DNA of 64,000 bases from the human T2T-CHM13v2.0 reference genome, Homo sapiens. The stretch lies in assembly GCF_009914755.1 (NCBI RefSeq), contig NC_060933.1, one strand, 5' to 3'. Under the pieces are notes generated by a model. That model saw only the letters and a list, made by a program, of their open reading frames with translations, did not search any database and had not been told where the DNA came from. Each line of letters begins with the position of its first letter. Position 1 is the stretch's first letter. The position numbers and the translations under genes are program-made. Shown in pieces: positions 223-50,328 of this stretch.

Positions 223-1039
223 GTAAGTGAGAAACTTGTCTATGAATCTCTTTTAATTGTAGCTTTCTGTCGCTTCTCTGAACATGGGTTATTCTGAGCT
301 GGGGAGGGTGGAGATGTCATGTGTGTAAGCAGAAGATATTCCTGAAGCACATCTGTTCAGGCGCCTTTCTCTGATGGCTGTCTATCTATTAGCTTTAGGG
401 AGACGTTTTTCGGTTTTGTATGGGGGGAGTAGGGCTCATCTTTTTTTCTACATTTGTTAGCTTCTACCCCTGGAGGAATGATTTAACCCCCTCTATCCCT
501 GTTTACCTGTTATTATTCTTTAAGGCTCAGTTTAAATATCATCACTTCTGGGTAATCTTTGTGCTGTTTTCTCCTTCTCCCAAGTCTAACTTAGGTCTCT
601 CCTGTGTGCTTCCATTTTACTGTGTGCACATCCATCATATGACATATATATATTTCTTTGACATGAACACAAAGTTTTAAAAGACATAGACATTGTTCCA
701 TTTTATATTCTTTGCATTTGGCTCAACACCTATGCATAGTATACCTCAATAAAATTTGATAAATGATTGACTTATTTCTCCTGAGATTGATTTGTCAAGA
801 TCACACAGATTAATTATTGAAATGAGCCATACGTTTTTGGTATATTGTTACCCTCTCCCCAGTTTCCCTCAAAACAGCTTGAGACACTAAAGGACTGACT
901 TAGAGTCTGATCTATTTCGCTTTTTCAACCTGTGATATGTGTGTGTGTGTGTGTGTGTAGGGGGATGCGGGGGGGGGGGATTTTGATACTTTTGTGTTGC
1001 TCTGTTTTTTCTGAATCTCATGCCAAACTCCATCAACTA

Positions 1040-1434
<395 letters not shown>

Positions 1435-2649
1435 TTACAGTATGCCAGATGCCATTCTGAGACTTTAAGTATTCTAATTTATTTAAACTTCACAACAACC
1501 CTAAGACAGATTTTACTGTTGTTCCCATTTTTGAGAGCAGGAAACTGAAGCATAAATAGATTGAGTAATTCGCCACAAATCACATAGCTAGTAACTGGTG
1601 AAGTAAATATTCAAACACAGAAAATCTGACTTAGTAGCTCCTACCTCTGTGTGAACCACTGTGTTATATTGATTCCTTCATATTGTTTCTGAAAAGGAAA
1701 ACCTTTGTCCATGGTTTGTGAATCTGTTGGTTGCCTTCAATTTGGTACATTCTATAGGCCCACTTTCCTGATAAAAGTAAAGGCCAATGGTAGAGGTGAA
1801 CTTTTTTTTCTTTATTTAAAGAAAACCTATTTTTCATATGATTTATTACTAACTTTTGTTTTTTGCTGTTTAGGACCGAACATTTAAGGTCATAGGAGGT
1901 CAGAAGAATCTGAATCCAAAACCAGGTTTTCAGGTTTACAGGTCCTTTTCAAAACTCATTGTAATGAGTTCATTGTGATTGATTTAATCTTTTAAACCTT
2001 TTTCCACGACTGCTAATGAGAAGCAAAATGTAAAGATTGAGATTTTACTTCCTACTCCTTCCTGGTCTCATTGATGAAATATAATTGAAGCGATTAAAGC
2101 GCAAATGCCAAGAGGGCAGGAGGAAATAAAAAACCTTAAATAATCAAGCAACTTTATTCCCATACATTTTTCATATGTTTACAGGCTATTTTATTTTTCT
2201 GTGAATAAGCCATTCTTGTCTTTTGCCTGCTCCCTCGTATATTTTTATTTTGAGAAATGTTAAACCTATAGAAAAGTTGAAAGAACAGTACCAAGAGTGC
2301 TCATTACCCTTTACTAGGTTCAGTGACAAGCATTTTGCCAGATTTGCTCTTTCCCTCATCCCCCTCTTATTTTTCTCTCATGTTTCTTTATCTCTGTCTC
2401 CATACATACATACACAAAAATACAAGTATTTTCTGAATCATTTGAATATAAGCTGCACATGCTATAACACATCAGCGTGTTTCTGCTAAGAGCTAGGAAA
2501 GTCAACATAACTGAAATACCATGATCACAATCAAGAAATTTAAGACTGATACAGTAATATTGTCTATAATACAGTCTATATTAAGAACTCCCTAATTGTC
2601 CCCAAAAATATTTTGAAAGCTTTTTTTATATTTTAAAAAATTTTATTTA

Positions 2650-3290
2650 TTTTTTAATTTTTATGGGTACATAGTAGGTATTTATGGAATACATGAGTAT
2701 TTTGATACGGGCATACAATATGTAGTAATCACATCAAGGTAAATGGGGTATCCATCACCTCAAGCATTTATCATTTCTTTGTGTTACAAATATTCCAGTT
2801 ATACTCTTTTAGTTATTTAAAAATGTGTAATAAATTATTGTTGACCATAGTCACCCTATTGTGCTAGCAAATACTAGATCTTACTCATTCTAGATAACTA
2901 TTTTTGTACGCATTAACCGTCCCTAATCTCCTCTTACCCCTAACTCCCCTTCCCAGCCTCTGTTAATCATCCTTCTATTCTCTGTCTCCATGAATTCAAT
3001 TGTTTTAATTTTTAGCTCCCACAAACGAGTGAGAACATGTGAAGTTTGTCTTTCTGTGCCTGGCTTATTTCACACAACATAATGTCCTCCAGTTTCATCC
3101 ATATTGTTGCAAATGACAGGATCTCATTCTTTTTTTTTATGGATAAATAGTACTACATTGTGTTTATGTACTACATTTTCCTTTTCCATTCATCTGTTGA
3201 TGGAAGCTTAGGCTGCTTTCAAATCTTGCCTATTGCGAACATTGCTGCAACAAACATAGGAGTGCAGATATCTCTTTGATATACTTTCAT
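2650..3290 (-). mobile_element. L1 (L1MA-like) 3' fragment
   Basis: gagtgagaacatg...tctttctgtgcctggcttatttcac...catccatattgttgcaaatgacaggatctcattc. Confidence 0.85.
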
Positions 3291-40543: not shown

Positions 40544-41027
40544 TCAAATATAACTTTCAGAAAGTTAACAGCTTGGCTTCTTTTTAGACTAAAAATTTAT
40601 CAGCAAATTTCGTTTTCTTGAAATCCCTTGATATATTTTGCTGGTATACTTTAATATTGCAAATACATTCTAGATATTGGTACAACATGTTTCATTTTTT
40701 TCATTTGTTTCTTAGAAAAATAAAAGAATTCTAAAAAGCTCACCAATGAAAAATGATTGCAAGTTGAAGCATTTAAAAATTGATATTATAGCTGTTCTTT
40801 TTCTCATATGGAATAAACTATTTGACTACATTGATATAATATTTAAGAACATGTGGATTTCCTTTTCATATTTTTTTAGTCTGAATGCTTTTTATCACAT
40901 TGGCAATTTTATTGTTCTAGTCTTCTCATTGAACATGTATTAAATCTTATAACTTCTTTCTTCCTTTTCCCTGTCTCTTCCTTTTTCTTTGCTTTATTGT
41001 TCCTCCAATTTTATCCCTTCACATCAG

Positions 41028-41330
41028 ACAAGGCTCACAGGCTAAAGATGAAAAAATTAGGATTATTTCAGCTTTCTCTGATGTTGACTATGAAGAGCAA
41101 GAAGATATACATAAGGAGATAGAGGGGAAAATATCACAAGAGTTTCTAGAAAATAATAACATAAACTTGAAGGAAGCAGAGATAAAAGAAATTAGAACCC
41201 TTTCAAAAGCTGATAAATACTACAGCCAACAAAAACAACCAAAGTATAAGAACAGGAAAAAGATACCACCTCAGAGCCAACAAACAGAATTCTCTACTGA
41301 GTTTAAGGTTGAAACTTCTGTTTTCTCCAG
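41028..41330 (+). CDS. UNC13B: Candidate 303-nt in-frame cassette exon, or 5' extension of the giant exon (QGSQAKDEKIRIISAFSDVDYEEQ...ETSVFS), phase 2-2
   Basis: ~75-nt pyrimidine tract, no AG from 40921 to 41025, acatcag| acceptor, open frame continuous with the giant ORF, CAG|gtatgc donor at phase 2. Confidence 0.6.
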
Positions 41331-44300
41331 GTATGCTCAGAAATATGATACACTAGATAGAAGAAGAAAAAAGAAATCCTTATACAATCATTTTGAAGAC
41401 AGTGAAAGAAGGCAATATGGTGAGAGATCTGAAACTAAGACTAACTACAAAAGTACATATTCTAATACTGAAAATTGTACCCTTTGCCATACTGAAAAGA
41501 AACAAAATATGGGGTACCCAGTTTTGTACCCCTACAAAAATGGATTTGTGGTTAAGAGTGGCATGCAGCGCATTAAGTTGGAAAGTCATGATTATGATCT
41601 GTCCAGTTGTTTAAGGCACTGTGAAAAGTCATCTGGCTCAAACCAGCATGTCACTAATTTTACCTCATTAGATATTCTTGAAGATTCTACTAGTAGTACT
41701 TCTGATGAACTTCTGGGTTCCCCCATTTCTGATAAGCAGGAAAATTTACAGTCACCAACATGGCATTCATCCAATGTCCACCATATTGGAGATTTTCCTG
41801 AGGAATATTATGTAGCAAATTCAGCATTGCCATTACAAAGGATGAATTGTGATGCAAAAACACTTGGAGATCTGTCTGAGTGCTCTATAGAAGAGATAAC
41901 CCCTTCCTCTATTGAGGAGCCCAAGGAGGACCGTATTGATACAATGGATGAGCTTCAGTGTTTGGTAGAAACGGTGTCAGAATATTTAGCAGAGAAGGAA
42001 GAGGAGATTAATAGATTTGGTTCACTTTCAAAAACTAAAAAATCACATAAACAAAATAGTACTCTTGATGCAGAACAGAGAACGCCTGGGGATCAAATAC
42101 CACCTTTAACTATTGTCAAGAATGACAAGGACACGGCCATCTCTTTCCCTGAGTTGACTGGAGTACAATGTGCTGTTGGTTCTTTGTTTAGTTCACTCAC
42201 AGAAAAAGTGGGTTCAGGCACAAAGCATCTAACAAACTCTGTGGAAAAGTTGGTTTCCTTAGTTCCAGAAAAAACAGAAACTCTTAATCAAATAGAGGCA
42301 ATTAATTTGGGATCTAAACCCAGAGCCATGGCAGTATTGGGGAAGGATCTTTCCATGCAATCTCCATTATCCTCTCAAAAAGATGATAATGTGAATATAG
42401 ACAGACATAGAAAAACCTCTGAAAATGAGCACATGGGTAATAAAACTGGGAGTTTATACTTTCAGAATACAACAGAAAGTATTGCAAAGGACTTGGCTCC
42501 ACAGAGTCAGAGTTCAGTTATAAAGTCGGTTTTCAGCAGGTTAAATCCATTGAAGATCTTTTCAGAAAAGGAGGAAACAAAAAAAGATGATGACCAGAGT
42601 AAGCCACCAAGAAAAGAAAGCTTTGTTGAGTGTGGTTTGGAGTTAAATAAAAGGGAAGGCACTCTTGACAATTACAGTAGTAGCATCATTGCTTTAAATG
42701 GGAGTGATGAAGAAACTACGGGCTGGTTCCAGATGCCCACAAGTGAGAATTTGTTGTCCTCCCAAGTAACCAGTGAACCTTCAAACTTAGTTAGTTCTGC
42801 AAGTAAAAATGATGAGAGTCTATTGGAAGAAAAACTCTGTATAGATCTGTCTCTTTTACCAGATCAACAAAAAATATGTGCCAAAGATACTCCAGGACAT
42901 CCTTGTATAGCTGGCAGTAGAACTGCAAATAAAGAGGTATTTTCAAAGCCATTAGAGGAGGACAAAGTTACAGGTAATGATGATTTCCTTGAGCCACTCA
43001 GAAAATCATTTAGCCAGTTTTTGCTCACTTCCCCTGAGACTTGTTCAAAGGAAAGTTTGTCAGAACCTGTGAAAATTCGCCAGGTGGAGGAAGATGGTTT
43101 AGAAAGGGGCTCTAAGAAAGATGGTCATTCCTTTTCCTTTAGTGGAAAACTAAATCTTCCATTTTTTAGAAGTCTTGGTCATTCTGAAAAGCAACAGGAG
43201 TTAAAAGAGAAAGGAAGCATTTTTCCTTTGTTTAAATTTTCTTTCACTGACAGCAAGGTTACTGTTAATGACCAGAGTTTACGTGGCTCAGCAGTAACCA
43301 CTGATGAGGAGAGCAAAAAAAATTGCCATGAAGATACCAAACATAGTTCAATAAAATCTAGTTCTGTTCCAAATATTCATAGTGATCTAGGAAAATTTGA
43401 CAGTACAGAGGAATTTAAAAAGAATGACCAGATAAATTGTCCTGAAGATGCCAAACTTAATTCAATAAAATCTAGTTCAGTTCCAAATATTCATGATGAT
43501 CTAGAGAAGTTTGACAGTATAAAGGAATTTAATAAGAATGACCAAGTAAATTGTCCTGAAGATGCCAAACTTAGTTCAATAAAATCTGGTTCAGCTCCAA
43601 ATACTCAGGATAATCTAGGGAAATTTGACAGTACAGAGGAATTTAATCAGAATGACCAAATAAATAGTCCTGAAGATGCCAAATTTAATATAATAAAGTC
43701 TGATTCAGTTACAAATATTAATAATGATCTGGGGAAATTTGGGAATATAGAGGAATTAAATCCAAGTGACCACACAGCAGGACAGAATTTTGAAAGGGAT
43801 GGCTTAGCCATCCCTGGAGTTGTGCCCAAAGAACATATAACTTCAGATCCTTTAGGAGAAGATAAGAATCTTATACAAGCAGCATCTTCAGTAGCATCAG
43901 ACTCTTCATTAGAGTGTATTTCTACCACTTCCAAATCCACTTTGGTTAATGAAATTAATGAAGATGAGGTTATAGATAAGACTTCCAAGAAAAATACCCA
44001 AGGAAGCTTCCTTTCTGGCCTGTTTAATAGGTTTTCTTCTGCTGAAAATTTGTCTAGTCAAGAATTAAATTTGAAAAATGATGACTCCCATCACAAGAAT
44101 AATACCCCAGGTTTAATCTCTGGAATATTTAACCTGCTATCAAATAGCGGTATGATTGATCATAAACCAGAGGAAGCAAAGTTCATGTCTTTAGGCAACA
44201 TGAAGAGTTTGAATGGAGATAACCATTTATCCTTGGATGAGGTCCCTGCTACTTCATGTGTGACTTCTGAGAACCCGAAGAACCATGTTGAAAAACATGA

Positions 44301-47300
44301 AACTTCTAGCTTCATAGAAGCCTCCTTATTACCTAAAGAAAACATACCATTATCTGATGCTGGGGATGATAATCATTATTGTTCCCCTACAGAGAAAAAC
44401 CAGCAAAGTGAAAAGCATCACCCCTCCTCTGAGAACATTGTACTTCACTGTGCTCCAAGTGCTCAGCTAGGTTTTTTGGAGAAATCTATGGCTAAGAGGC
44501 AAATGCCAAACCATGTTCTTGAGGCAAAACTACATGAAAATTCAAACAAGTTAAATTCACCTGTACTAAATACCAACATTCTCAATAAATCAAACAACTA
44601 TCAGGCTTTTGAAGAGATGAACAGTCCTTTCTGTTTTGAATGGGACTCTGACATAAAAGATTTGTCTAAAAATTCCAGAAAACTTCAGCCAGTTTATTAT
44701 ATGTTAAATCAAAATAGATTTCTATCAGCCGATGCTTGCTTGTGGCTTGACTCAGAAAACTCAGTGATAAATTTTTGCCAAAAAGATCAAAATGCAAACA
44801 TCTTGGAGTGGAGAACAAATCCAAACAGTGTCATTTGGTGTGACTTACCATATGAATCATTCAATCAGTTAGCATTTAATGAAGATTACTTATTAAGAGG
44901 TGATGTGTGGGCAGCTAACTCATTATATGGAAACTCTGGTCCTCTTCCAATTAATGAGGCTAATAATTCACTAGAAGAATTACCCATTGACTTAAGTTCT
45001 TCATCAGATCATGAAAAGACTACATGCCCCGTAGTTGATCAAGAATCATTAAGAATGGATGAAAACTTTGTTTTTTCAAGTTTTGGTTATGAGTACCAGG
45101 AATGGTTGTCATGTCTTGAACATGGAGTGTGGTGGCCATCAGAGGATGGGGATTATGGATATTATATGTTTCATGATGGTCAATATATCTATTCTCTTCT
45201 CACTGATTCTACTGGGCAGTATGCATATTTATTTATACCTGATTCTTATCAAGAGTATTTGGATTGTGATTTACAGACAAATGGTCTATCAAGTATTACG
45301 TTGGATGACAGCATTATTTCTGCCTGTAGTTTTAAAGTACTTGATAAGGAAGATGAAATATTTTGGTATGTTGAAGAGGAACCAATTGATGACCCTCTTG
45401 ATTTATCTTTAGCTTTGCCAAGAAGTGAGGAACCATTGTATCTAAATTTAGAAACCTTTTCACAAGTACTTAAAGAGTCAAGTTGTGACCAAAGCGATCA
45501 GCCACTAGATTTTTCAGGCTATAATCGTCAAAAGTTTAAAGGAGACTTTAGATCTTTCAAAGAAAGGCCGTGTGGTTCTGAAGACGCTGAATGTACATTA
45601 GATCTCAGAAATCAGCCCCAAACTATTAGTAATCATGTCTCAAGCAGAGATCAAATTATAGAGAGAGATAAAAACCAGCCTCTAGCTGAAGATTCATCAG
45701 TTCACCTTTCCAGTTTCCATTGGCTTCAGTCTTCTGTTGAAGAAGTTACCACTTTGGTTCATCCTGAAAATATGACTAAAGGCTCACAACAAGCAGAAGA
45801 GACATCATTAGTGAACAAAGTGGCTTCAGTATTTTCTGTTTTGGGTGCCTCAGTTGGAAGTACTTTGAAGTTTGATAAGAGTGAATCCTTAGAGGCTTTG
45901 GCCATGCAGAAAGTGAATCAGCAGTCAGATTTAGCAGAGCTCACAAATGATGGCTTTCAGTCATTAATCATGAGTAAGCAATTAGAGGGTAACTCCCCAA
46001 ATGTGGAAAAAAGTCTTCTTAAGGATTCAGAAAGACAGATAGTATCCAATGTTCAGCATCCAGAATTGATCAAAAATATAAGGCAAGAATTCTCTTTAAA
46101 TAAAAACAACCATGTGAAAAAGCAAAGTTTGTTAAAATCTGGTTTCCAGGTAAGCCAAACAACTCCTCAGGCTAAATCAGGTGTAAAAGATGATGAAATC
46201 ATTACAACAGACTCTATTTCAGTTTCTCCTGCACCTCAGCATAGTGGGGATGAGCGTGAGAATTATGAGCTTCCCCAGGGCCAGTCATCCAAAGAGTCTG
46301 ATAAAACATTATTTAAAAGTTCATTGAAACTCTTCAGTCAAGAAGAATCGTCAGTTAGTATGACAGCAAATGAAAAACAGTCATCTGGATTTTTGAATCT
46401 TTTTAAGACTCAGGTGAATAAAGAAGGATCACCAAACTTAGAAAAGATTGGTGATACAAATGTCAAGATACCACCTCAAGAAAAGAAAGAATCTTCTGGT
46501 GTTTCAAATTTTTGGGGTACCCTTGGGGATTTCTTTAAAGCCAATGTATCTCCTATACAGACAACTGAAAATACGTCTGTTTCTTCAATGACTATTAAGG
46601 ATGAGGTCAGGTCAAGTCCTACTCCTATGGAGCTAGCTAGCCAGGGTGCTGGGAACTTTCCTGCTGCACCAATTTCCTCTAAAGGGAAGGCTAGAGTTAG
46701 AAGACTGAACAAACAGACTACTATCGATGACAGTAGGTTAGAGGAATCAACTAGAGGGATCCAGGGTAATGATTTGACTGAAAAAGAGGTACCATTCAGA
46801 GACCATCTAATCCAGCAGTCACCTAATTCATCTTTTTCAACAAGTAGTCTCAAAGAGTCTTCCAGGGAGTCTTCAGTAGAAACTAGTGGTGTGACTACAG
46901 TGACAGAAGTTTCAAAAAGTAATGAAATATCCTTTGATACCCTGAGCAAGAGAAATTCAAATGAACAAGATCATTTTTCTGACAAAGACTGGAGTTTCTC
47001 TATGGCTGCAACATCTTCATCTCAACCAGAGTTATCAACCAAAAAGAGTATATTTTCTTTTCTCACTGGATCTGAAAAATCTGAGAACAGAGCCTCTGCT
47101 ACTCTACCAAGAGCCAAATCTCAGGCAGAAGGGCTATTCACACTTCCTTCATTTTTTTCCACTGCTAGCTCAAGCATTAAGAAGGATGCCTCTCATAGTA
47201 GTTCTACTTTTAGTTTCTTCAGCTTGTCCTTTTTGGATCAAAAAAAGGAGACCTCTGGGGAAAAACAAAGCATTTCAACTGTTGTTCCAGTGACCTCCCA

Positions 47301-49577
47301 GCCCTGTAAGAAGACAAATGTTTTTGTAGAGAGTGGTAGCACAATGACCAGAGAAAGTTCCAGTGGTCATAGAGATAGCATAGCCCAAGAAGTAGTTCAT
47401 GAACAGCAAATGGCACCTTGTATTTCCATTAACAACACCATTGAGGTTACCTCCCTTGCAGATGAGCTCAGTGTAGACAAGGACTGTCAGGAAAAACTGA
47501 GTTCCAATATTGTACCAGGGACATCAGTGGATTTCCAGATGAATGAATTGCAAAAAGACATTATTCCTCCTTCACCAGAATTTCAGGCACAGGCTGAAAC
47601 ATTCCTCACTGGCCCAGAGAACCTTGGGATAGCTCCCCATGAAGAAGAGGCTTTCAACCACAAAGCCTTCCCCAGTGACTCACTGTCCAACTCTTTTTCA
47701 CATGCTAAACAGTTAATTGAAAAATTCAATGATTTAGACACTTGTACTAACTGCCACCAAAATGAGAAATTTACTACTGACCCAGTGAACTTGCCATTAG
47801 AAAAGGCCCCCGATGAGGTCTTACCACAGATCCTAGAGCCAGCCTCTTCCTCTCCAGAGCCAGGGTGTGCAGGGAACCTTCAGAACCAAGATGCAGATAA
47901 AGAGGAAGACAAATTTGCATTAGGCTCTTCAGTAGACATGCTTTCAGGGTTTGTGACCAAAGTGAAATCTTTCTCTGGGAGCTTAATTGAACCTCCCAAA
48001 ACACTCTCTGGACTTTTCTCCTCTCCTAAATCTCCAAAGAAAAACTCCTTTTTCTCTCTTGCTTCTGATGTATCATCTCAGCCCCTCAAAGGTGAATTAT
48101 TTGGAATTTTCAAAAGTCCCAAGCCAGAGCCATACAAACAAGAATCATCTCTCCCAGCTACTTCATGGCTTCAAAATGGTTGTTCCAGAGATGCTGTAGG
48201 ATCAGTACCTCCAGAAAGGAGAGAAGCTGCCTTTACAGCACTAAGTTCAGAATCTACTCTCAGTGACTGTAGAATGACTGTGGTTAGTGCAAAGCCAGAA
48301 TCAGATATCTTGACAGATGATCCTAAACTAACAACCAAAATGGAAGACAATAATACTCCTGAAAATATTCTGGAACCTCAACGTTCTGAAACAATTAATA
48401 CATCTTCTTTCTCGGGTGATGATACTGGGCAAGGAGTATTGTCTCTGAGTGATGAAGGAGACATGGGGATATTGCAAGCTACAGACACGGAGGCATCGTT
48501 AGAAGCAGAGAACTTTGCGCTGCCAGCACAGTTGCATCCAGATCCTACCTGCATTGCCGAAGAGCTTCCTCCTCCCATTCAGCCACCTCTTCCTCTTGAG
48601 CCAGAGCCAGCTATTCAAACTGCCTCCACAAACCAAGACTTACTGGAGCTGCATCCAGCCAGTTCACTAGAAACTGATACTATGCTGTTCAATGATGCAA
48701 GTGTGAGCCAGAGCACCACTCTGGAAACCGAAGGGCACTTTTCTCATCCTCTGCTGGAGGACCCTGTGCTTGCTGCCAGAGAAAGTTGTGAGATAATTCA
48801 TGCCCAGAAAGATCCACCTGTAGTACCCCAGGAAACAGAGCAGTCAAGACCACGTTTTGAGATCCCAAATGTGACCACTTGGCCAAAGCTTCGTTTGCCA
48901 TCCTCTGCTACTAACCATGGGAAACCACTGAGCTCTTTCTTTTCCTCACCTCTCCCCTCTGGCAATAGAGCAGCAGAGACTGGTTTAATGTCCAGTTTTA
49001 AGAAGTTGTCAACTCTATTTGAGGGAAGTAGTGAGGGGAAAGGGAGTGTATTAGCAAGTGATTCAAAACTAGGATTTGGAAAGGTAGATCTTTCATTTCC
49101 ATGGCCAAAAGAGAACAAAGGGGTCCCTGAACAAATGCCTACAGAATCCTCCCCTCCAGTTTTAGTTACTAGCAGTGATCAGGACCTTAACTCCAGTGAG
49201 GCTAACAAAGCTTTGAAGTCTTCTCAAATATCTGGGGCCAGTGCTCAGCCAGGTAAAGTCTACACTCAGCCCTCTGGGACCTCTGAGCAGCTGGTGGCCA
49301 GTCCAGAGGTCTGTGCTCAGGGGCTTTCAGGGTCTGGAGAAGGGGGAAACCAGCAGGAAATCTCAGCATCTGGAGAACACTGGGATACCAAAGCCAACCT
49401 GTCTAGCCCCGCCTGTCCTTCAGGGAAACATGAGGAAGAACCCTCCACTGTCTCTGAGATATTTCACCAGCTAGAAAAACAAGAAGAGGAGGCAGTACCT
49501 GCCAGTACTGACTCTGATTTGAATGTACAGCAGCCAGTCACTCTGAATGACATCAAGGAGCCCATGACCAACAAAAG
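41331..49577 (+). CDS. UNC13B: UNC13B giant alternative coding exon, 8247 nt / 2749 codons; the frame runs on to TAA at 49654-49656 if unspliced
   Basis: 2829-aa ORF in the track with no TE-like sequence. The ttctgttttctccag| acceptor is in phase with the upstream exon. A phase-2 AG|gc boundary at 49577 joins in frame to 51628, and 1591+2749=4340 aa matches the recalled length of the long UNC13B isoform. The 3' boundary is less certain than the 5'. Confidence 0.85.
43321..43770 (+). repeat. Coding tandem repeat, 114 bp (38 aa) x ~4, inside the giant exon
   Basis: Units start at 43321, 43435, 43549 and 43663; approximate consensus NCPEDAKLxSIKSSSVPNIHxDLGKFDSTEEFNKNDQI. Confidence 0.95.
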
Positions 49578-50328
49578 GCCTGTTCTTAACTCAAGCATCA
49601 TAAATGGCTTTAAGGAATTGACCATTTATGATGCAAGTGACTTAGTGGTAGATTAATCATAGCTTGCTTTTTATCCTTCTTGTGTCTTTCCTAGTACCCG
49701 AGCTTCATGTTAATTAGGGGTTAAATAACAAGAACTCAGTGTGTGGGTATTTTCATCCTCCCCTTCTCTCTCTGCCAAATGTAATTCATTTACTGGAACA
49801 AGGAGCTTCCTGCTTAAAGCAAAAGCTGGGCCCCCGATATTTACTCACTCTGGTTTGCTCTGCCTTGTATAATGTGAAATGGAGAAAGGAGGGCAGGAAG
49901 AGGTAGTAAGTAGTTGGTGGTATATATTAACTACAACTACATGATAGGCTAGGATGCTTCCTTGGGCCTTAGGCACTTATATCTTGTAGGAGATGGGGAT
50001 AGATCTATTTTGCTTTGTTTTTTCAAGTCTTCTAAGATGCTTTCTCCAGTGGCAATGAGTGTATTAAGCAAAATACAAAGTGCAAAGGATGCCTTGGGAT
50101 AGTCTGTATTCCCATATCCTATTCCATACAGATTTGCATAGTTTCTTCCATGGTATCATCTCTGCCTTTTACTACCCTCAAGGCTGATGTCTGATAAATG
50201 CTTTGAGTAAAATCTCACAGGAACTCAGAGCTGTCCTTTGCTGTAGTTCTTCAGTCTCGAGCAGTGTACAGGATCTATCTGCAGAGGGTACTGTTATTTC
50301 CCCTAAGAAGCAGTACCATACAGTACAG

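What the first reader, a model, noticed from the sequence alone, without database searches (positions are those of the whole stretch)
42178..49030. About 20 dispersed Ser/Gly-Phe/Leu amphipathic (ALPS-like) motifs
Seen: recurrent short motifs such as GSLFSSLT (42178), SVFSRLNPLKIFS, GSFLSGLFNRFSS (44002), GLISGIFNLLS (44110), VASVFSVLG, SGFLNLFK, SNFWGTLGDFFK (46504), SIFSFLTG (47047), GLFTLPSFFS, MLSGFVTKVKSFSG, TLSGLFSS (48001), GELFGIFKS, LSSFFSS and GLMSSFKKLSTLF (48982). They are separated by polar linkers and absent from the core at ~44150-45800. Known: ALPS motifs have bulky hydrophobics with a S/T/G polar face and bind highly curved membranes (ArfGAP1, synapsin). Inference: a beads-on-a-string vesicle-binding array, or phase-separation stickers.
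Basis: partly seen in the sequence, partly recalled or inferred. Interest (0 to 1): 0.75.

Follow-up and report, generated by a model that had tools for sequence, protein, structure and literature searches.

The report
Conserved Phe-Ser/Gly motif array, giant UNC13B exon
A huge, apparently unstudied exon of the human synaptic gene UNC13B encodes a floppy protein segment studded with about 20 short greasy motifs that have been kept since the common ancestor of fish and mammals and probably let the protein grab small vesicles or stick to itself.

Summary
A strict motif class, [G/S]-(hydrophobic+Phe)-[G/S/T/N/K], occurs 17 times against 3.6±1.9 in shuffles (0 of 2000 reach it).

The motifs lie in the 8,247-nt in-frame cassette exon of UNC13B (2,749 codons), between the C2A domain and the C1-C2B-MUN-C2C module.

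They are islands of conservation in a disordered chain. Twenty islands show 0.63 identity between human and sauropsids, against 0.25 for the linkers. Hydrophobic positions keep their residue class in 94% of cases.

The array is a family trait. The count is 10-25 in 110 tetrapod proteins and 22-57 in ray-finned fish. In fish it forms overt GLFG/SMFG tandem repeats, with 21 exact GLFG in salmon.

Hydrophobic periodicity peaks at 100°. Only 6-11 sites pass my ALPS-like filter, which does recover the experimentally validated Piccolo ALPS. Five of 20 islands contain an internal Pro, and AlphaFold2 predicts no helices.

Verdict: this is a real, selected, multivalent array of short amphipathic motifs. 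ALPS-like vesicle binding is the best single reading (about 0.4), with FG-like cohesion or partner docking as rivals. My literature searches found no description of it.

The parts
41331..49577 (+). Giant in-frame cassette exon of UNC13B (8,247 nt = 2,749 codons; peptide 41332-49575 = 2,748 full codons)
   Evidence: Open frame. AG acceptor at 41329-41330 and GC donor at 49578-49579. The spliced translation with the flanking exons is open. The exon maps to residues 255-3005 of the 4,343-aa chimpanzee protein. No Pfam match and no PDB match.
42175..42210 (+). Motif island 1, VGSLFSSLTEKV (exon aa 282-293)
   Evidence: Strict-class hit. Identity to human 0.95/0.81/0.85 in eutherians/marsupials/sauropsids. 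muH 0.57.
42514..42564 (+). Motif island 2, aa 395-411 (SVFS...NPLKIFS), with an internal conserved Pro
   Evidence: Identity 0.91/0.61/0.64.
42994..43032 (+). Motif island 3, aa 555-567 (KSFSQFLL)
   Evidence: Conserved island found blind to the motif. Identity 0.96/0.82/0.77.
43129..43185 (+). Motif island 4, aa 600-618 (SFSFSGKL..PFFRSLG)
   Evidence: Identity 0.75/0.68/0.56.
43204..43242 (+). Motif island 5, aa 625-637 (GSIFPLFKFS)
   Evidence: Identity 0.86/0.79/0.81.
44002..44040 (+). Motif island 6, aa 891-903 (GSFLSGLFNRFSS). It is one unit of the 'GLLSGLFK.AS.EN' repeat, which is multiplied in fish.
   Evidence: (muH 0.57).
44110..44151 (+). Motif island 7, aa 927-940 (GLISGIFNLLSNSG), uncharged; second unit of the same repeat
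   Evidence: (muH 0.60).
44569..45591 (+). Motif-poor 'core' (aa 1080-1420) holding the most deeply conserved stretch of the exon (aa ~1258-1299)
   Evidence: 18 invariant columns across 31 sequences from human to teleosts. It is the only part matched by many fish proteins. The AF2 model is poor, mean pLDDT 36.4, with one helix and three strands at pLDDT 50-59.
45802..45873 (+). Motif island 8, aa 1491-1514 (NKVASVFSVLGASVGSTLKF); the longest and most ALPS-like site
   Evidence: Passes both the 12-mer and 18-mer filters..
46306..46338 (+). Motif island 9, aa 1659-1669 (TLFKSSLKLFS)
   Evidence: Identity 0.77/0.82/0.89.
46378..46410 (+). Motif island 10, aa 1683-1693 (SSGFLNLFKT)
46495..46551 (+). 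Motif island 11, aa 1722-1740 (SNFWGTLGDFFKANVS); highest hydrophobic moment
   Evidence: muH 0.74; passes the 12-mer and 18-mer filters..
47044..47076 (+). Motif island 12, aa 1905-1915 (KSIFSFLTGSE)
   Evidence: Identity 0.94/0.88/0.70.
47128..47166 (+). Motif island 13, aa 1933-1945 (EGLFTLPSFFS), with an internal conserved Pro
   Evidence: The local pLDDT maximum of 57 in the AF2 model falls here.
47203..47238 (+). Motif island 14, aa 1958-1969 (FSFFSLSFL)
47938..47988 (+). Motif island 15, aa 2203-2219 (MLSGFVTKVKSFSGSLI)
   Evidence: Passes the 12-mer and 18-mer filters..
48001..48024 (+). Motif island 16, aa 2224-2231 (TLSGLFSS, followed by PKSP). It matches the form of the fish unit 'GLLSMFGGPSP'.
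48043..48066 (+). Motif island 17, aa 2238-2245 (NSFFSLAS)
48091..48117 (+). Motif island 18, aa 2254-2262 (GELFGIFKS)
   Evidence: A local pLDDT maximum of 61 falls here.
48928..48948 (+). Motif island 19, aa 2533-2539 (LSSFFSS)
48982..49020 (+). Motif island 20, aa 2551-2563 (GLMSSFKKLSTLF)
   Evidence: muH 0.62. Identity 0.94/0.69/0.94.

Best explanation
The motifs are selected short linear elements of a 2,749-residue, intrinsically disordered, acidic cassette insert of ubMunc13-2 (UNC13B). The insert sits between the N-terminal C2A domain and the C1-C2B-MUN-C2C priming module.

Each element is a 1.5- to 4-turn amphipathic unit of the form Phi-Phi-small-small-Phi-Phe-[S/G/N/K], and it is locally neutral to cationic.

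Inferred mechanism:
- Individually weak, the ~20 units (up to 57 in fish) act by avidity.
- They insert their Phe/Leu faces into lipid-packing defects of small, highly curved, anionic vesicles. This is the same chemistry as the experimentally validated ALPS motif of Piccolino.
- The giant isoform would then be a long, flexible, multivalent vesicle-capturing tether in front of the priming module.

What is shown: existence, enrichment, conservation, periodicity, predicted disorder and position in the protein. What is inferred: membrane binding, curvature preference and the tethering role.
For: - Enrichment: 17 vs 3.6+-1.9, 0 of 2000 shuffles reach it.
- Conservation: 20 islands show 0.84/0.65/0.63 identity (eutherians/marsupials/sauropsids) vs 0.68/0.37/0.25 elsewhere outside the core. 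Phe in motifs is 0.90 identical in sauropsids (n=21) vs 0.36 outside (n=73).
- Property is kept better than identity. Hydrophobic positions show 0.65 identity but 0.94 same class; small positions 0.56 and 0.83. That is expected for a physicochemical interface rather than a stereospecific one.
- Helical periodicity: the moment spectrum of motif 12-mers peaks at 100 degrees, z 4.8 (15 human sites), 10.1 and 9.0 (40 and 39 sites in two fish proteins).
- ALPS-like windows: 11 clusters vs 4.1+-1.9 (0 of 500) for 12-mers; 6 vs 1.5 (2 of 500) for 18-mers.
- Positive control: in the 498-aa PCLO exon frame, the only strict-class hit and the only ALPS-like windows fall on the peptide shown to bind small synaptic-vesicle-like liposomes (PMC13394108, passages and section 13).
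- Local charge: motif 12-mers average +0.76 in a chain that averages -0.69 per 12 aa.
- Predicted disorder: mean pLDDT 43.7, with pLDDT rising at the motifs.
- The array is kept in 110 tetrapod proteins (10-25, median 18) and in gar and both teleost paralogues (22-57).
Against: - Most units are short: island length 7-24 aa, median 13. Only 6 clusters pass an 18-residue filter.
- 5 of 20 islands carry an internal Pro that is conserved across amniotes. In fish the core is followed by G-G-P. Both limit helix length.
- AF2 predicts no helix anywhere in 641 residues that include 10 sites.
- Lys is enriched 1.8-fold in conserved islands. ALPS motifs are described as poor in charges (PMC4569407, passages).
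- Small residues are also well conserved, and in fish the units are FG-type repeats. Both fit cohesive or docking roles equally well.
- No lipid-binding data exist.
- Expression of the exon was not examined here. It rests only on the RefSeq model in the hub's table.
Confidence: 0.4

Rival explanations
1. FG-repeat-like cohesive stickers. The F-[G/S] units mediate weak multivalent hydrophobic self-association, or partitioning into another FG-like or synaptic condensate. The insert would then form or join a phase at the release site rather than bind lipid directly.
For: - In ray-finned fish the array is an overt tandem repeat of GLFG/SMFG/SLFG cores every ~25-38 residues (median spacing).
- Fish spacers are 70-78% S/T/G/A/P/Q/N and only 8-10% D+E and 4-6% K+R.
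- Salmon unc13bb has 57 strict-class sites including 21 exact GLFG and 40 FG dipeptides.
- Copy number varies between lineages (10-57), as in sticker arrays.
- The cores are too short, and too closely flanked by Gly/Pro, for long helices.
- The resemblance to GLFG nucleoporin domains is recalled knowledge, not tested here.
Against: - The human exon has 5 FG dipeptides against 5.4 expected.
- Human linkers are highly charged, 16-17% D+E and 8-12% K+R, unlike cohesive GLFG domains (recalled).
- The 100-degree periodicity and the cationic neighbourhood of the motifs are not needed for FG-type cohesion.
- No homology to any nucleoporin was seen, with no Pfam hit.
Confidence: 0.25
2. Docking motifs for one folded partner. 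The units are short linear motifs that each bind the same hydrophobic groove of a presynaptic or trafficking protein, recruiting many copies of it.
For: - High identity of Phe (0.90), Gly (0.81) and Ser (0.78) at the 4-residue cores between human and sauropsids.
- Internal conserved Pro in 5 of 20 islands.
- Island length of 7-13 aa is typical of linear motifs.
- No predicted helix.
Against: - No partner is known.
- Free L/F/I/M interchange at hydrophobic positions (identity 0.65, same class 0.94), and variants such as SLFS, GLFK, SMFG and SFFS all occur at equivalent places. This argues against a tight pocket.
- The motif matches no linear-motif class that I can recall (clathrin box, FxDxF, DPF, FFAT, LIR with acidic flank). 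These are recalled classes, not tested.
Confidence: 0.2
3. Chance or compositional artefact in a Ser-rich sequence, or an untranslated or mis-annotated open frame.
For: - The sequence is 14.3% Ser.
- The patterns were written after seeing the motifs.
- One of the four patterns is only weakly enriched (9 vs 4.1; 51 of 2000 shuffles reach it).
Against: - 0 of 2000 shuffles reach the strict count.
- The enrichment replicates in 32 of 33 distant relatives.
- Motifs are conservation islands.
- A 2,907-codon open frame in ~38% G+C DNA is kept open from teleosts to human, and the exon is in frame with its neighbours.
Confidence: 0.02

Closest known systems
ALPS motif of Piccolo/Piccolino (and its Bassoon counterpart)
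   Same: - It is an active-zone scaffold protein with a disordered context.
- It has the same chemistry: L/F/I with G/S/A/T, including an identical SIFS core. It passes the same filters as the UNC13B sites.
- It was shown to bind small synaptic-vesicle-like liposomes and to be needed for ectopic vesicle recruitment (PMC13394108; passages and section 13 read).
   Different: - Piccolo has a single motif of about 19-22 residues, not an array.
- There is no sequence homology to the UNC13B exon (best local alignments are low-complexity, E >= 0.01 without composition correction).
- UNC13B units are mostly shorter, often next to Lys, and some contain Pro.
Classical ALPS motifs (ArfGAP1, GMAP-210, Nup133, synapsin I)
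   Same: They are unfolded in solution, have bulky hydrophobic residues, a polar face of Gly/Ser/Thr and few charges (PMC4569407, passages). The synapsin and GMAP-210 roles are quoted in PMC13394108 section 13.
   Different: - Canonical motifs are one or two longer helices (length recalled as about 20-40 aa).
- UNC13B has about 20 short units in human. Only 6 clusters reach 18 residues by my filter.
- The UNC13B units are strongly conserved in sequence, whereas ALPS motifs are said to lack sequence homology.
GLFG-type FG-repeat domains of nucleoporins (e.g. Nup98; recalled, not fetched)
   Same: Many copies of a [G/S]-L/M-F-[G/S] core separated by uncharged, disordered S/T/P/Q/A/G-rich spacers, as seen in teleost unc13ba/unc13bb.
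   Different: - The host is an exocytosis priming protein, not a pore protein.
- The human array has no FG excess (5 vs 5.4 expected) and has charged spacers.
- No homology was detected.
Alternative large N-terminal exons of other Unc13 genes (Drosophila Unc13A/B, bMunc13-2, Munc13-3)
   Same: Isoform-specific, largely non-domain N-terminal regions that set where and how the shared priming module is anchored (PMC5379939, passages).
   Different: - This is an internal in-frame cassette downstream of C2A, not an alternative N-terminus.
- It is far longer (2,749 aa).
- The phmmer search of 1.84 billion representatives returned 51 hits. All hits that were checked by Pfam or by source name were UNC13B-type proteins; several hits remain unnamed.

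Membership tests
ALPS (amphipathic lipid packing sensor) motif | Hydrophobic face of bulky residues (F, L, W, I, M) with alpha-helical periodicity | tested here: met
   The moment spectrum of motif-centred 12-mers peaks at 100 degrees, z 4.8 (15 human sites) and 9.0-10.1 (39-40 fish sites). L at -4/-3/+3 and F at +7 of Phe are enriched 1.6-2.2x.
ALPS (amphipathic lipid packing sensor) motif | Polar face mainly Gly/Ser/Thr with few charged residues (definition from PMC4569407) | tested here: inconclusive
   11 clusters pass a 12-mer filter (<=2 charged, >=1/3 S/T/G, >=1/3 bulky, no Pro, muH >= 0.45) vs 4.1+-1.9 in shuffles. However, Lys is 1.8x enriched in conserved islands, and 9 of 20 islands have net charge +2 or +3.
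ALPS (amphipathic lipid packing sensor) motif | A continuous stretch long enough for a multi-turn helix (about 20-40 aa; length recalled) | tested here: inconclusive
   6 clusters pass the 18-mer filter vs 1.5+-1.2 (2 of 500 shuffles reach it). Islands are 7-24 aa, median 13, and 5 of 20 have an internal Pro.
ALPS (amphipathic lipid packing sensor) motif | Unfolded in solution | tested here: met
   AF2 with 23 aligned sequences gives mean pLDDT 43.7 and no helix or sheet over 641 aa that include 10 sites. This is a prediction only.
ALPS (amphipathic lipid packing sensor) motif | Folds on, and prefers, highly curved or loosely packed membranes | not testable with these tools
   Needs liposome flotation and CD or molecular dynamics.
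FG-repeat (GLFG-type) domain | Many FG dipeptide cores | tested here: not met
   Human exon: 5 FG vs 5.4 expected; F-S is the enriched pair (29 vs 16.8). The feature is met in teleosts, with 23-40 FG and 21 exact GLFG in salmon.
FG-repeat (GLFG-type) domain | Low-charge, disordered spacers (feature recalled) | tested here: not met
   Human linkers are 16-17% D+E and 8-12% K+R. Teleost linkers are 8-10% and 4-6%, with 70-78% S/T/G/A/P/Q/N.
FG-repeat (GLFG-type) domain | Cohesion or binding of nuclear transport receptors | not testable with these tools
   Needs biochemistry.
UNC13B / ubMunc13-2 | C2A ... C1, C2B, MUN, C2C architecture, with the exon spliced in frame | tested here: met
   The exon maps to residues ~255-3005 of 4,260-4,540-aa orthologues that carry precomputed C2, C1 and MUN Pfam domains. 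Fish relatives have C2 at the N-terminus and C1, three C2 stretches and MUN after the insert. The human spliced translation is open.

The most novel reading that the evidence does not exclude
The giant ubMunc13-2 isoform is a vertebrate-wide vesicle-capturing organiser with a contour length near a micrometre. Its ancestral GLFG-like Phe array forms a nucleoporin-style cohesive phase at release sites, and that phase selectively wets small vesicles. Membrane sensing and phase separation would then be two faces of one motif. This would be a previously unrecognised layer of synaptic or secretory vesicle pool organisation, built into the priming factor itself.
Probability: 0.15. Interest if true: 0.85.

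Novelty: new variant of a known kind. Interest (0 to 1): 0.66.

Why it matters
Munc13 proteins are the essential vesicle-priming factors of regulated exocytosis. How vesicles are collected and handed to the priming module is still debated.

Here the RefSeq-selected UNC13B transcript carries a 2,749-residue insert. The insert has been kept in gar, in both teleost paralogues and in tetrapods. Its only deeply conserved features outside a small core are about 20 short Phe-based amphipathic motifs.

If these bind vesicles or drive condensation, the priming factor would contain its own multivalent tether. That would parallel the newly reported ALPS-based vesicle tethering by Piccolino at ribbon synapses.

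Seven of my eight literature searches looked for a description of the exon or its motifs and found none. The only paper citing the transcript was seen as a search listing and not read. The array therefore gives well-defined mutational targets (Phe to Ala, exon deletion) for a question that can be tested directly.

Tried and rejected
- **Pfam on the whole exon**: only two sub-threshold chance matches to cytochrome families.
- **PDB sequence search**: 0 hits at E <= 0.01.
- **ESM Atlas look-alikes** of aa 1890-2622: best scores 0.80, at the level of shuffled proteins. The hits were generic vertebrate disordered proteins, so this was dropped.
- **AF2 of the core**: mean pLDDT 36.4. That is too poor for a fold search, so none was run.
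- **AF2 of a motif-rich segment**: no secondary structure. I use it only as a disorder prediction.
- **Homology between the UNC13B exon and PCLO/BSN exons**: only low-complexity alignments, so the likeness is analogy and not common descent.
- **Human genome search with a 96-aa motif block**: only the window itself, plus one chance match at E 5.9.
- **The argument that 'ALPS motifs are not conserved, so conservation means protein docking'**: weakened because the Piccolo ALPS has a clear Bassoon counterpart.
- **Recalled linear-motif classes** (clathrin box, FxDxF, DPF, FFAT, acidic LIR, gamma-ear motif): considered and rejected because the acidic residues they need are missing. None was tested with a tool.
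- **Complex prediction**: not used, because no specific partner is proposed.
- **Expression of the exon, cartilaginous fishes and lampreys**: could not be examined.

Full report
**What is there**

The window is part of human UNC13B. The frame starting at 40933 is open for 2,907 codons.

The annotated exon 41331-49577 has these features:
- An AG acceptor, and a non-canonical GC donor (GCCTGT).
- A length of 8,247 nt, exactly 2,749 codons, so it can be included or skipped without changing the frame.
- An open translation when spliced to the neighbouring exons of the window.

The exon maps to residues 255-3005 of the 4,343-aa chimpanzee protein. In the orthologues I aligned it begins at about residue 255-393 of proteins that carry C2, C1 and MUN domains. 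The insert therefore lies after the N-terminal C2A domain and before the C1-C2B-MUN-C2C module described for ubMunc13-2 (PMC5379939, passages).

Downstream exons encode a ...[14 protein letters not shown] stretch. I recall this as the calmodulin-binding helix; that was not tested.

The peptide is 14.3% Ser, 9.1% Glu and 4.3% Phe, with net charge -158. It has no Pfam family and no solved relative.

**Checking the observation**

I defined a strict class, [G/S]-(hydrophobic-Phe or Phe-hydrophobic)-[G/S/T/N/K]. Results against shuffles:

| Pattern | Observed | Shuffles | Shuffles reaching observed |
|---|---|---|---|
| Strict class, global shuffle | 17 | 3.62±1.87 | 0 of 2000 |
| Strict class, 150-aa block shuffle | 17 | 3.78±1.88 | 0 of 2000 |
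| Generic 8-residue definition | 23 clusters | 9.65±2.78 | 0 of 1000 |
| Φ-Φ-small-Φ-Φ | 9 | 4.1 | 51 of 2000 |

These patterns were written after seeing the motifs, so the independent replications matter more:
- The rest of UNC13B has 0 strict hits in 1,592 aa, against 1.2 expected.
- 32 of 33 distant relatives of at least 700 aa are enriched, with z from 4.5 to 28.8. The exception is P0148, at z 0.7.

The motif-poor core is real for the strict class (no hit between aa 932 and 1498). Three generic clusters do fall inside it.

**Conservation**

A search of 5.8 billion proteins gave 171 relatives, of which 120 were listed: primates to marsupials, turtles and birds.

I chose 21 of those 120 for phylogenetic spread (12 eutherians, 3 marsupials, 6 sauropsids) and aligned the exon-homologous parts.

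Identity to human at the strict 4-residue cores, compared with the rest outside the core:

| Group | Motif cores | Rest outside the core |
|---|---|---|
| Eutherians | 0.90 | 0.70 |
| Marsupials | 0.72 | 0.40 |
| Sauropsids | 0.73 | 0.28 |

- Phe inside motifs is 0.90 identical in sauropsids (n=21), against 0.36 outside (n=73).
- A scan blind to the motif found 27 conserved islands, 18 of them outside the core. Eight contain a strict hit, and most of the others are also F/L-S-K clusters.
- Phe is 3.84-fold enriched in the islands, Leu 1.83-fold and Lys 1.81-fold.
- Twenty curated islands (264 aa) average 0.84/0.65/0.63 identity, against 0.68/0.37/0.25 elsewhere.
- The majority consensus of two tool-made alignments (31 and 23 sequences) shows the same islands separated by positions without a consensus.

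One caveat applies. Linkers of disordered regions align poorly, which exaggerates the contrast somewhat.

**Depth and the fish form**

An exhaustive phmmer search with exon aa 880-2000 gave 51 hits. Names obtained with two further searches show two groups:
- Teleost unc13bb, plus gar UNC13B.
- The second teleost paralogue unc13ba, up to 7,131 aa in zebrafish.

Several of these proteins have C2 at the N-terminus, and C1, C2 and MUN after the insert. The insert was therefore present in the common ancestor of ray-finned fish and tetrapods. Cartilaginous fishes were not seen, and I cannot say whether they lack it.

Strict-class counts:
- 110 tetrapod proteins longer than 2,500 aa (of the 120 listed): 10-25, median 18.
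- Gar: 30, against 4.4-4.5 in shuffles.
- Salmon: 57.

In herring and two unnamed teleost proteins the units are overt tandem repeats:
- A '...GLLSGLFK.AS.EN...' type lies before the core. The human sites at aa 891 and 927 are its two remaining units.
- A '...KGLLSMFGGPSP...' / '...GGSLLGGLFGGSAPQ...' type lies after the core. The human 'TLSGLFSSPKSP' at aa 2224 has the same form.

Salmon has 21 exact GLFG and 40 FG dipeptides. Fish spacers are low in charge, whereas human linkers are highly charged.

**Testing the ALPS reading**

Evidence that fits:
- Around Phe, Gly is enriched 3.2-fold at -2, Ser 1.9-fold at +1, Leu 2.2-fold at +3 and 1.6-1.8-fold at -4/-3, and Phe 2.2-fold at +7.
- The hydrophobic-moment spectrum of motif-centred 12-mers peaks at 100°, with z 4.8 in human and 9-10 in fish. 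The selection pattern itself contributes part of this signal.
- With a filter of my own, 11 twelve-residue clusters pass against 4.1±1.9 (0 of 500), and 6 eighteen-residue clusters pass against 1.5±1.2 (2 of 500). The filter requires no Pro, few charges, at least 1/3 S/T/G, at least 1/3 bulky residues and a moment threshold.
- As a positive control I located human PCLO through its zinc-finger family. In the 498-aa exon frame, the single strict hit and the only windows passing the filter fall on the peptide that a 2026 study showed to bind small vesicle-like liposomes and to be required for vesicle recruitment (PMC13394108, passages and section 13). Bassoon has a matching stretch.
- Hydrophobic positions of the UNC13B motifs keep their class in 94% of deep orthologue residues but their identity in only 65%. 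Small positions show 83% and 56%.
- The motif neighbourhoods are slightly cationic (+0.76 per 12 aa) in an acidic chain (-0.69).

All this fits a physicochemical interface with an anionic, loosely packed membrane.

**Evidence against a canonical ALPS**

- Islands are 7-24 residues long, median 13.
- Five of 20 have an internal Pro that is conserved across amniotes.
- Fish cores are followed by Gly-Gly-Pro.
- Lys is enriched, whereas ALPS motifs are described as charge-poor and without sequence homology (PMC4569407, passages).
- AlphaFold2 with 23 aligned sequences predicts no helix in 641 residues. Mean pLDDT is 43.7, and only 77 residues reach 50 or more. pLDDT does rise at the motifs.

I therefore file the array as ALPS-like in chemistry but not as a set of canonical ALPS motifs.

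**Explanations**

- **Best supported (about 0.4):** a multivalent array of individually weak amphipathic insertions that captures small vesicles by avidity. The giant isoform would be a long flexible tether ahead of the priming module.
- **Rival (0.25):** FG-like cohesive stickers. This is strong for fish and weak for the human sequence.
- **Rival (0.2):** docking motifs for one folded partner.
- **Effectively excluded (0.02):** chance or a non-coding frame.

The first three are not mutually exclusive. Membrane binding, condensation and expression are all untested here.

**Is it known?**

Seven searches aimed at the exon or its motifs found no description of either:
- UNC13B + 'large exon'
- Munc13-2 + amphipathic
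- UNC13B + isoform + testis
- unc13bb
- Munc13-2 + giant
- NM_001371189
- Munc13 + 'ALPS motif'

The only paper citing the transcript is an oncology study, which I saw as a search listing only. Subscription journals are not covered by the library, so an earlier description cannot be excluded.

Noticed in passing
window 43316-43761 (+): A 114-bp tandem repeat, 3.9 copies, 84% matches, in frame. It encodes ~38-aa units (exon aa ~662-810). The stretch is largely absent from sauropsids (gap fraction 0.49-0.86) and poorly conserved even among eutherians (0.31-0.40 in the first two 50-aa windows). It looks like a lineage-specific expansion inside the exon.
   Followed up: partly
window 49578-49583 (+): The 3' splice donor of the giant exon is a non-canonical GC (GCCTGT). 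ORF-only gene predictions from marsupials, turtles and camel read through it and all show K-R-P-V at that point. The donor region therefore seems conserved at the nucleotide level.
   Followed up: partly
window ~45103-45228 (+), exon aa ~1258-1299: This is the most deeply conserved stretch of the exon, with W, G, D, Y, L and T columns invariant in 31 sequences from human to teleosts. It is rich in W/Y/G and is predicted, at low confidence (pLDDT 50-59), as a helix followed by three short strands. It matches no Pfam or PDB entry, and its fold and function are unknown.
   Followed up: partly
window 41935-42021 (+), exon aa 202-230: An acidic, helix-like island (IDTMDELQCLVETVSEYLAEKEEEINRFG) is nearly invariant across tetrapods and fish. 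It is a different kind of conserved element from the Phe motifs and may be a separate binding site.
   Followed up: no
window 41350-41379 (+), exon aa 7-16: A conserved basic cluster (DRRRKKK) lies at the very start of the exon. It could be a nuclear-localisation-like or phosphoinositide-binding patch.
   Followed up: no
window ~49072-49113 (+), exon aa ~2581-2594: A conserved 'FGK.D.SFPW.KE' element lies after the last motif. It is also present at the end of the fish repeat arrays ('...fpwqke').
   Followed up: no
L004 (G000:C3:49670785-49673919), + frame 0, ORF aa 144-161: Human Bassoon carries a close counterpart of the Piccolo ALPS peptide. It passes my 18-residue ALPS-like filter but not the strict Phe pattern.
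   Followed up: partly
L005 (G000:C7:84404461-84407598), - frame 0, ORF aa ~62-92: Upstream of the first Piccolo zinc finger there is a 'GFLS...NKFNPF' stretch. It loosely resembles UNC13B island 2 ('SVFS.LNPLKIFS'). This may be coincidence.
   Followed up: no
proteins P0315, P0284, P0337 (teleost unc13ba-type): The second teleost paralogue encodes even larger predicted proteins (6,143-7,131 aa) with 45-52 strict-class motifs. Both duplicates therefore kept the insert after the teleost genome duplication.
   Followed up: partly
window 46476-46970 (-): A 164-codon antisense open frame lies inside the exon. It was listed mechanically only, and nothing suggests it is a gene.
   Followed up: no
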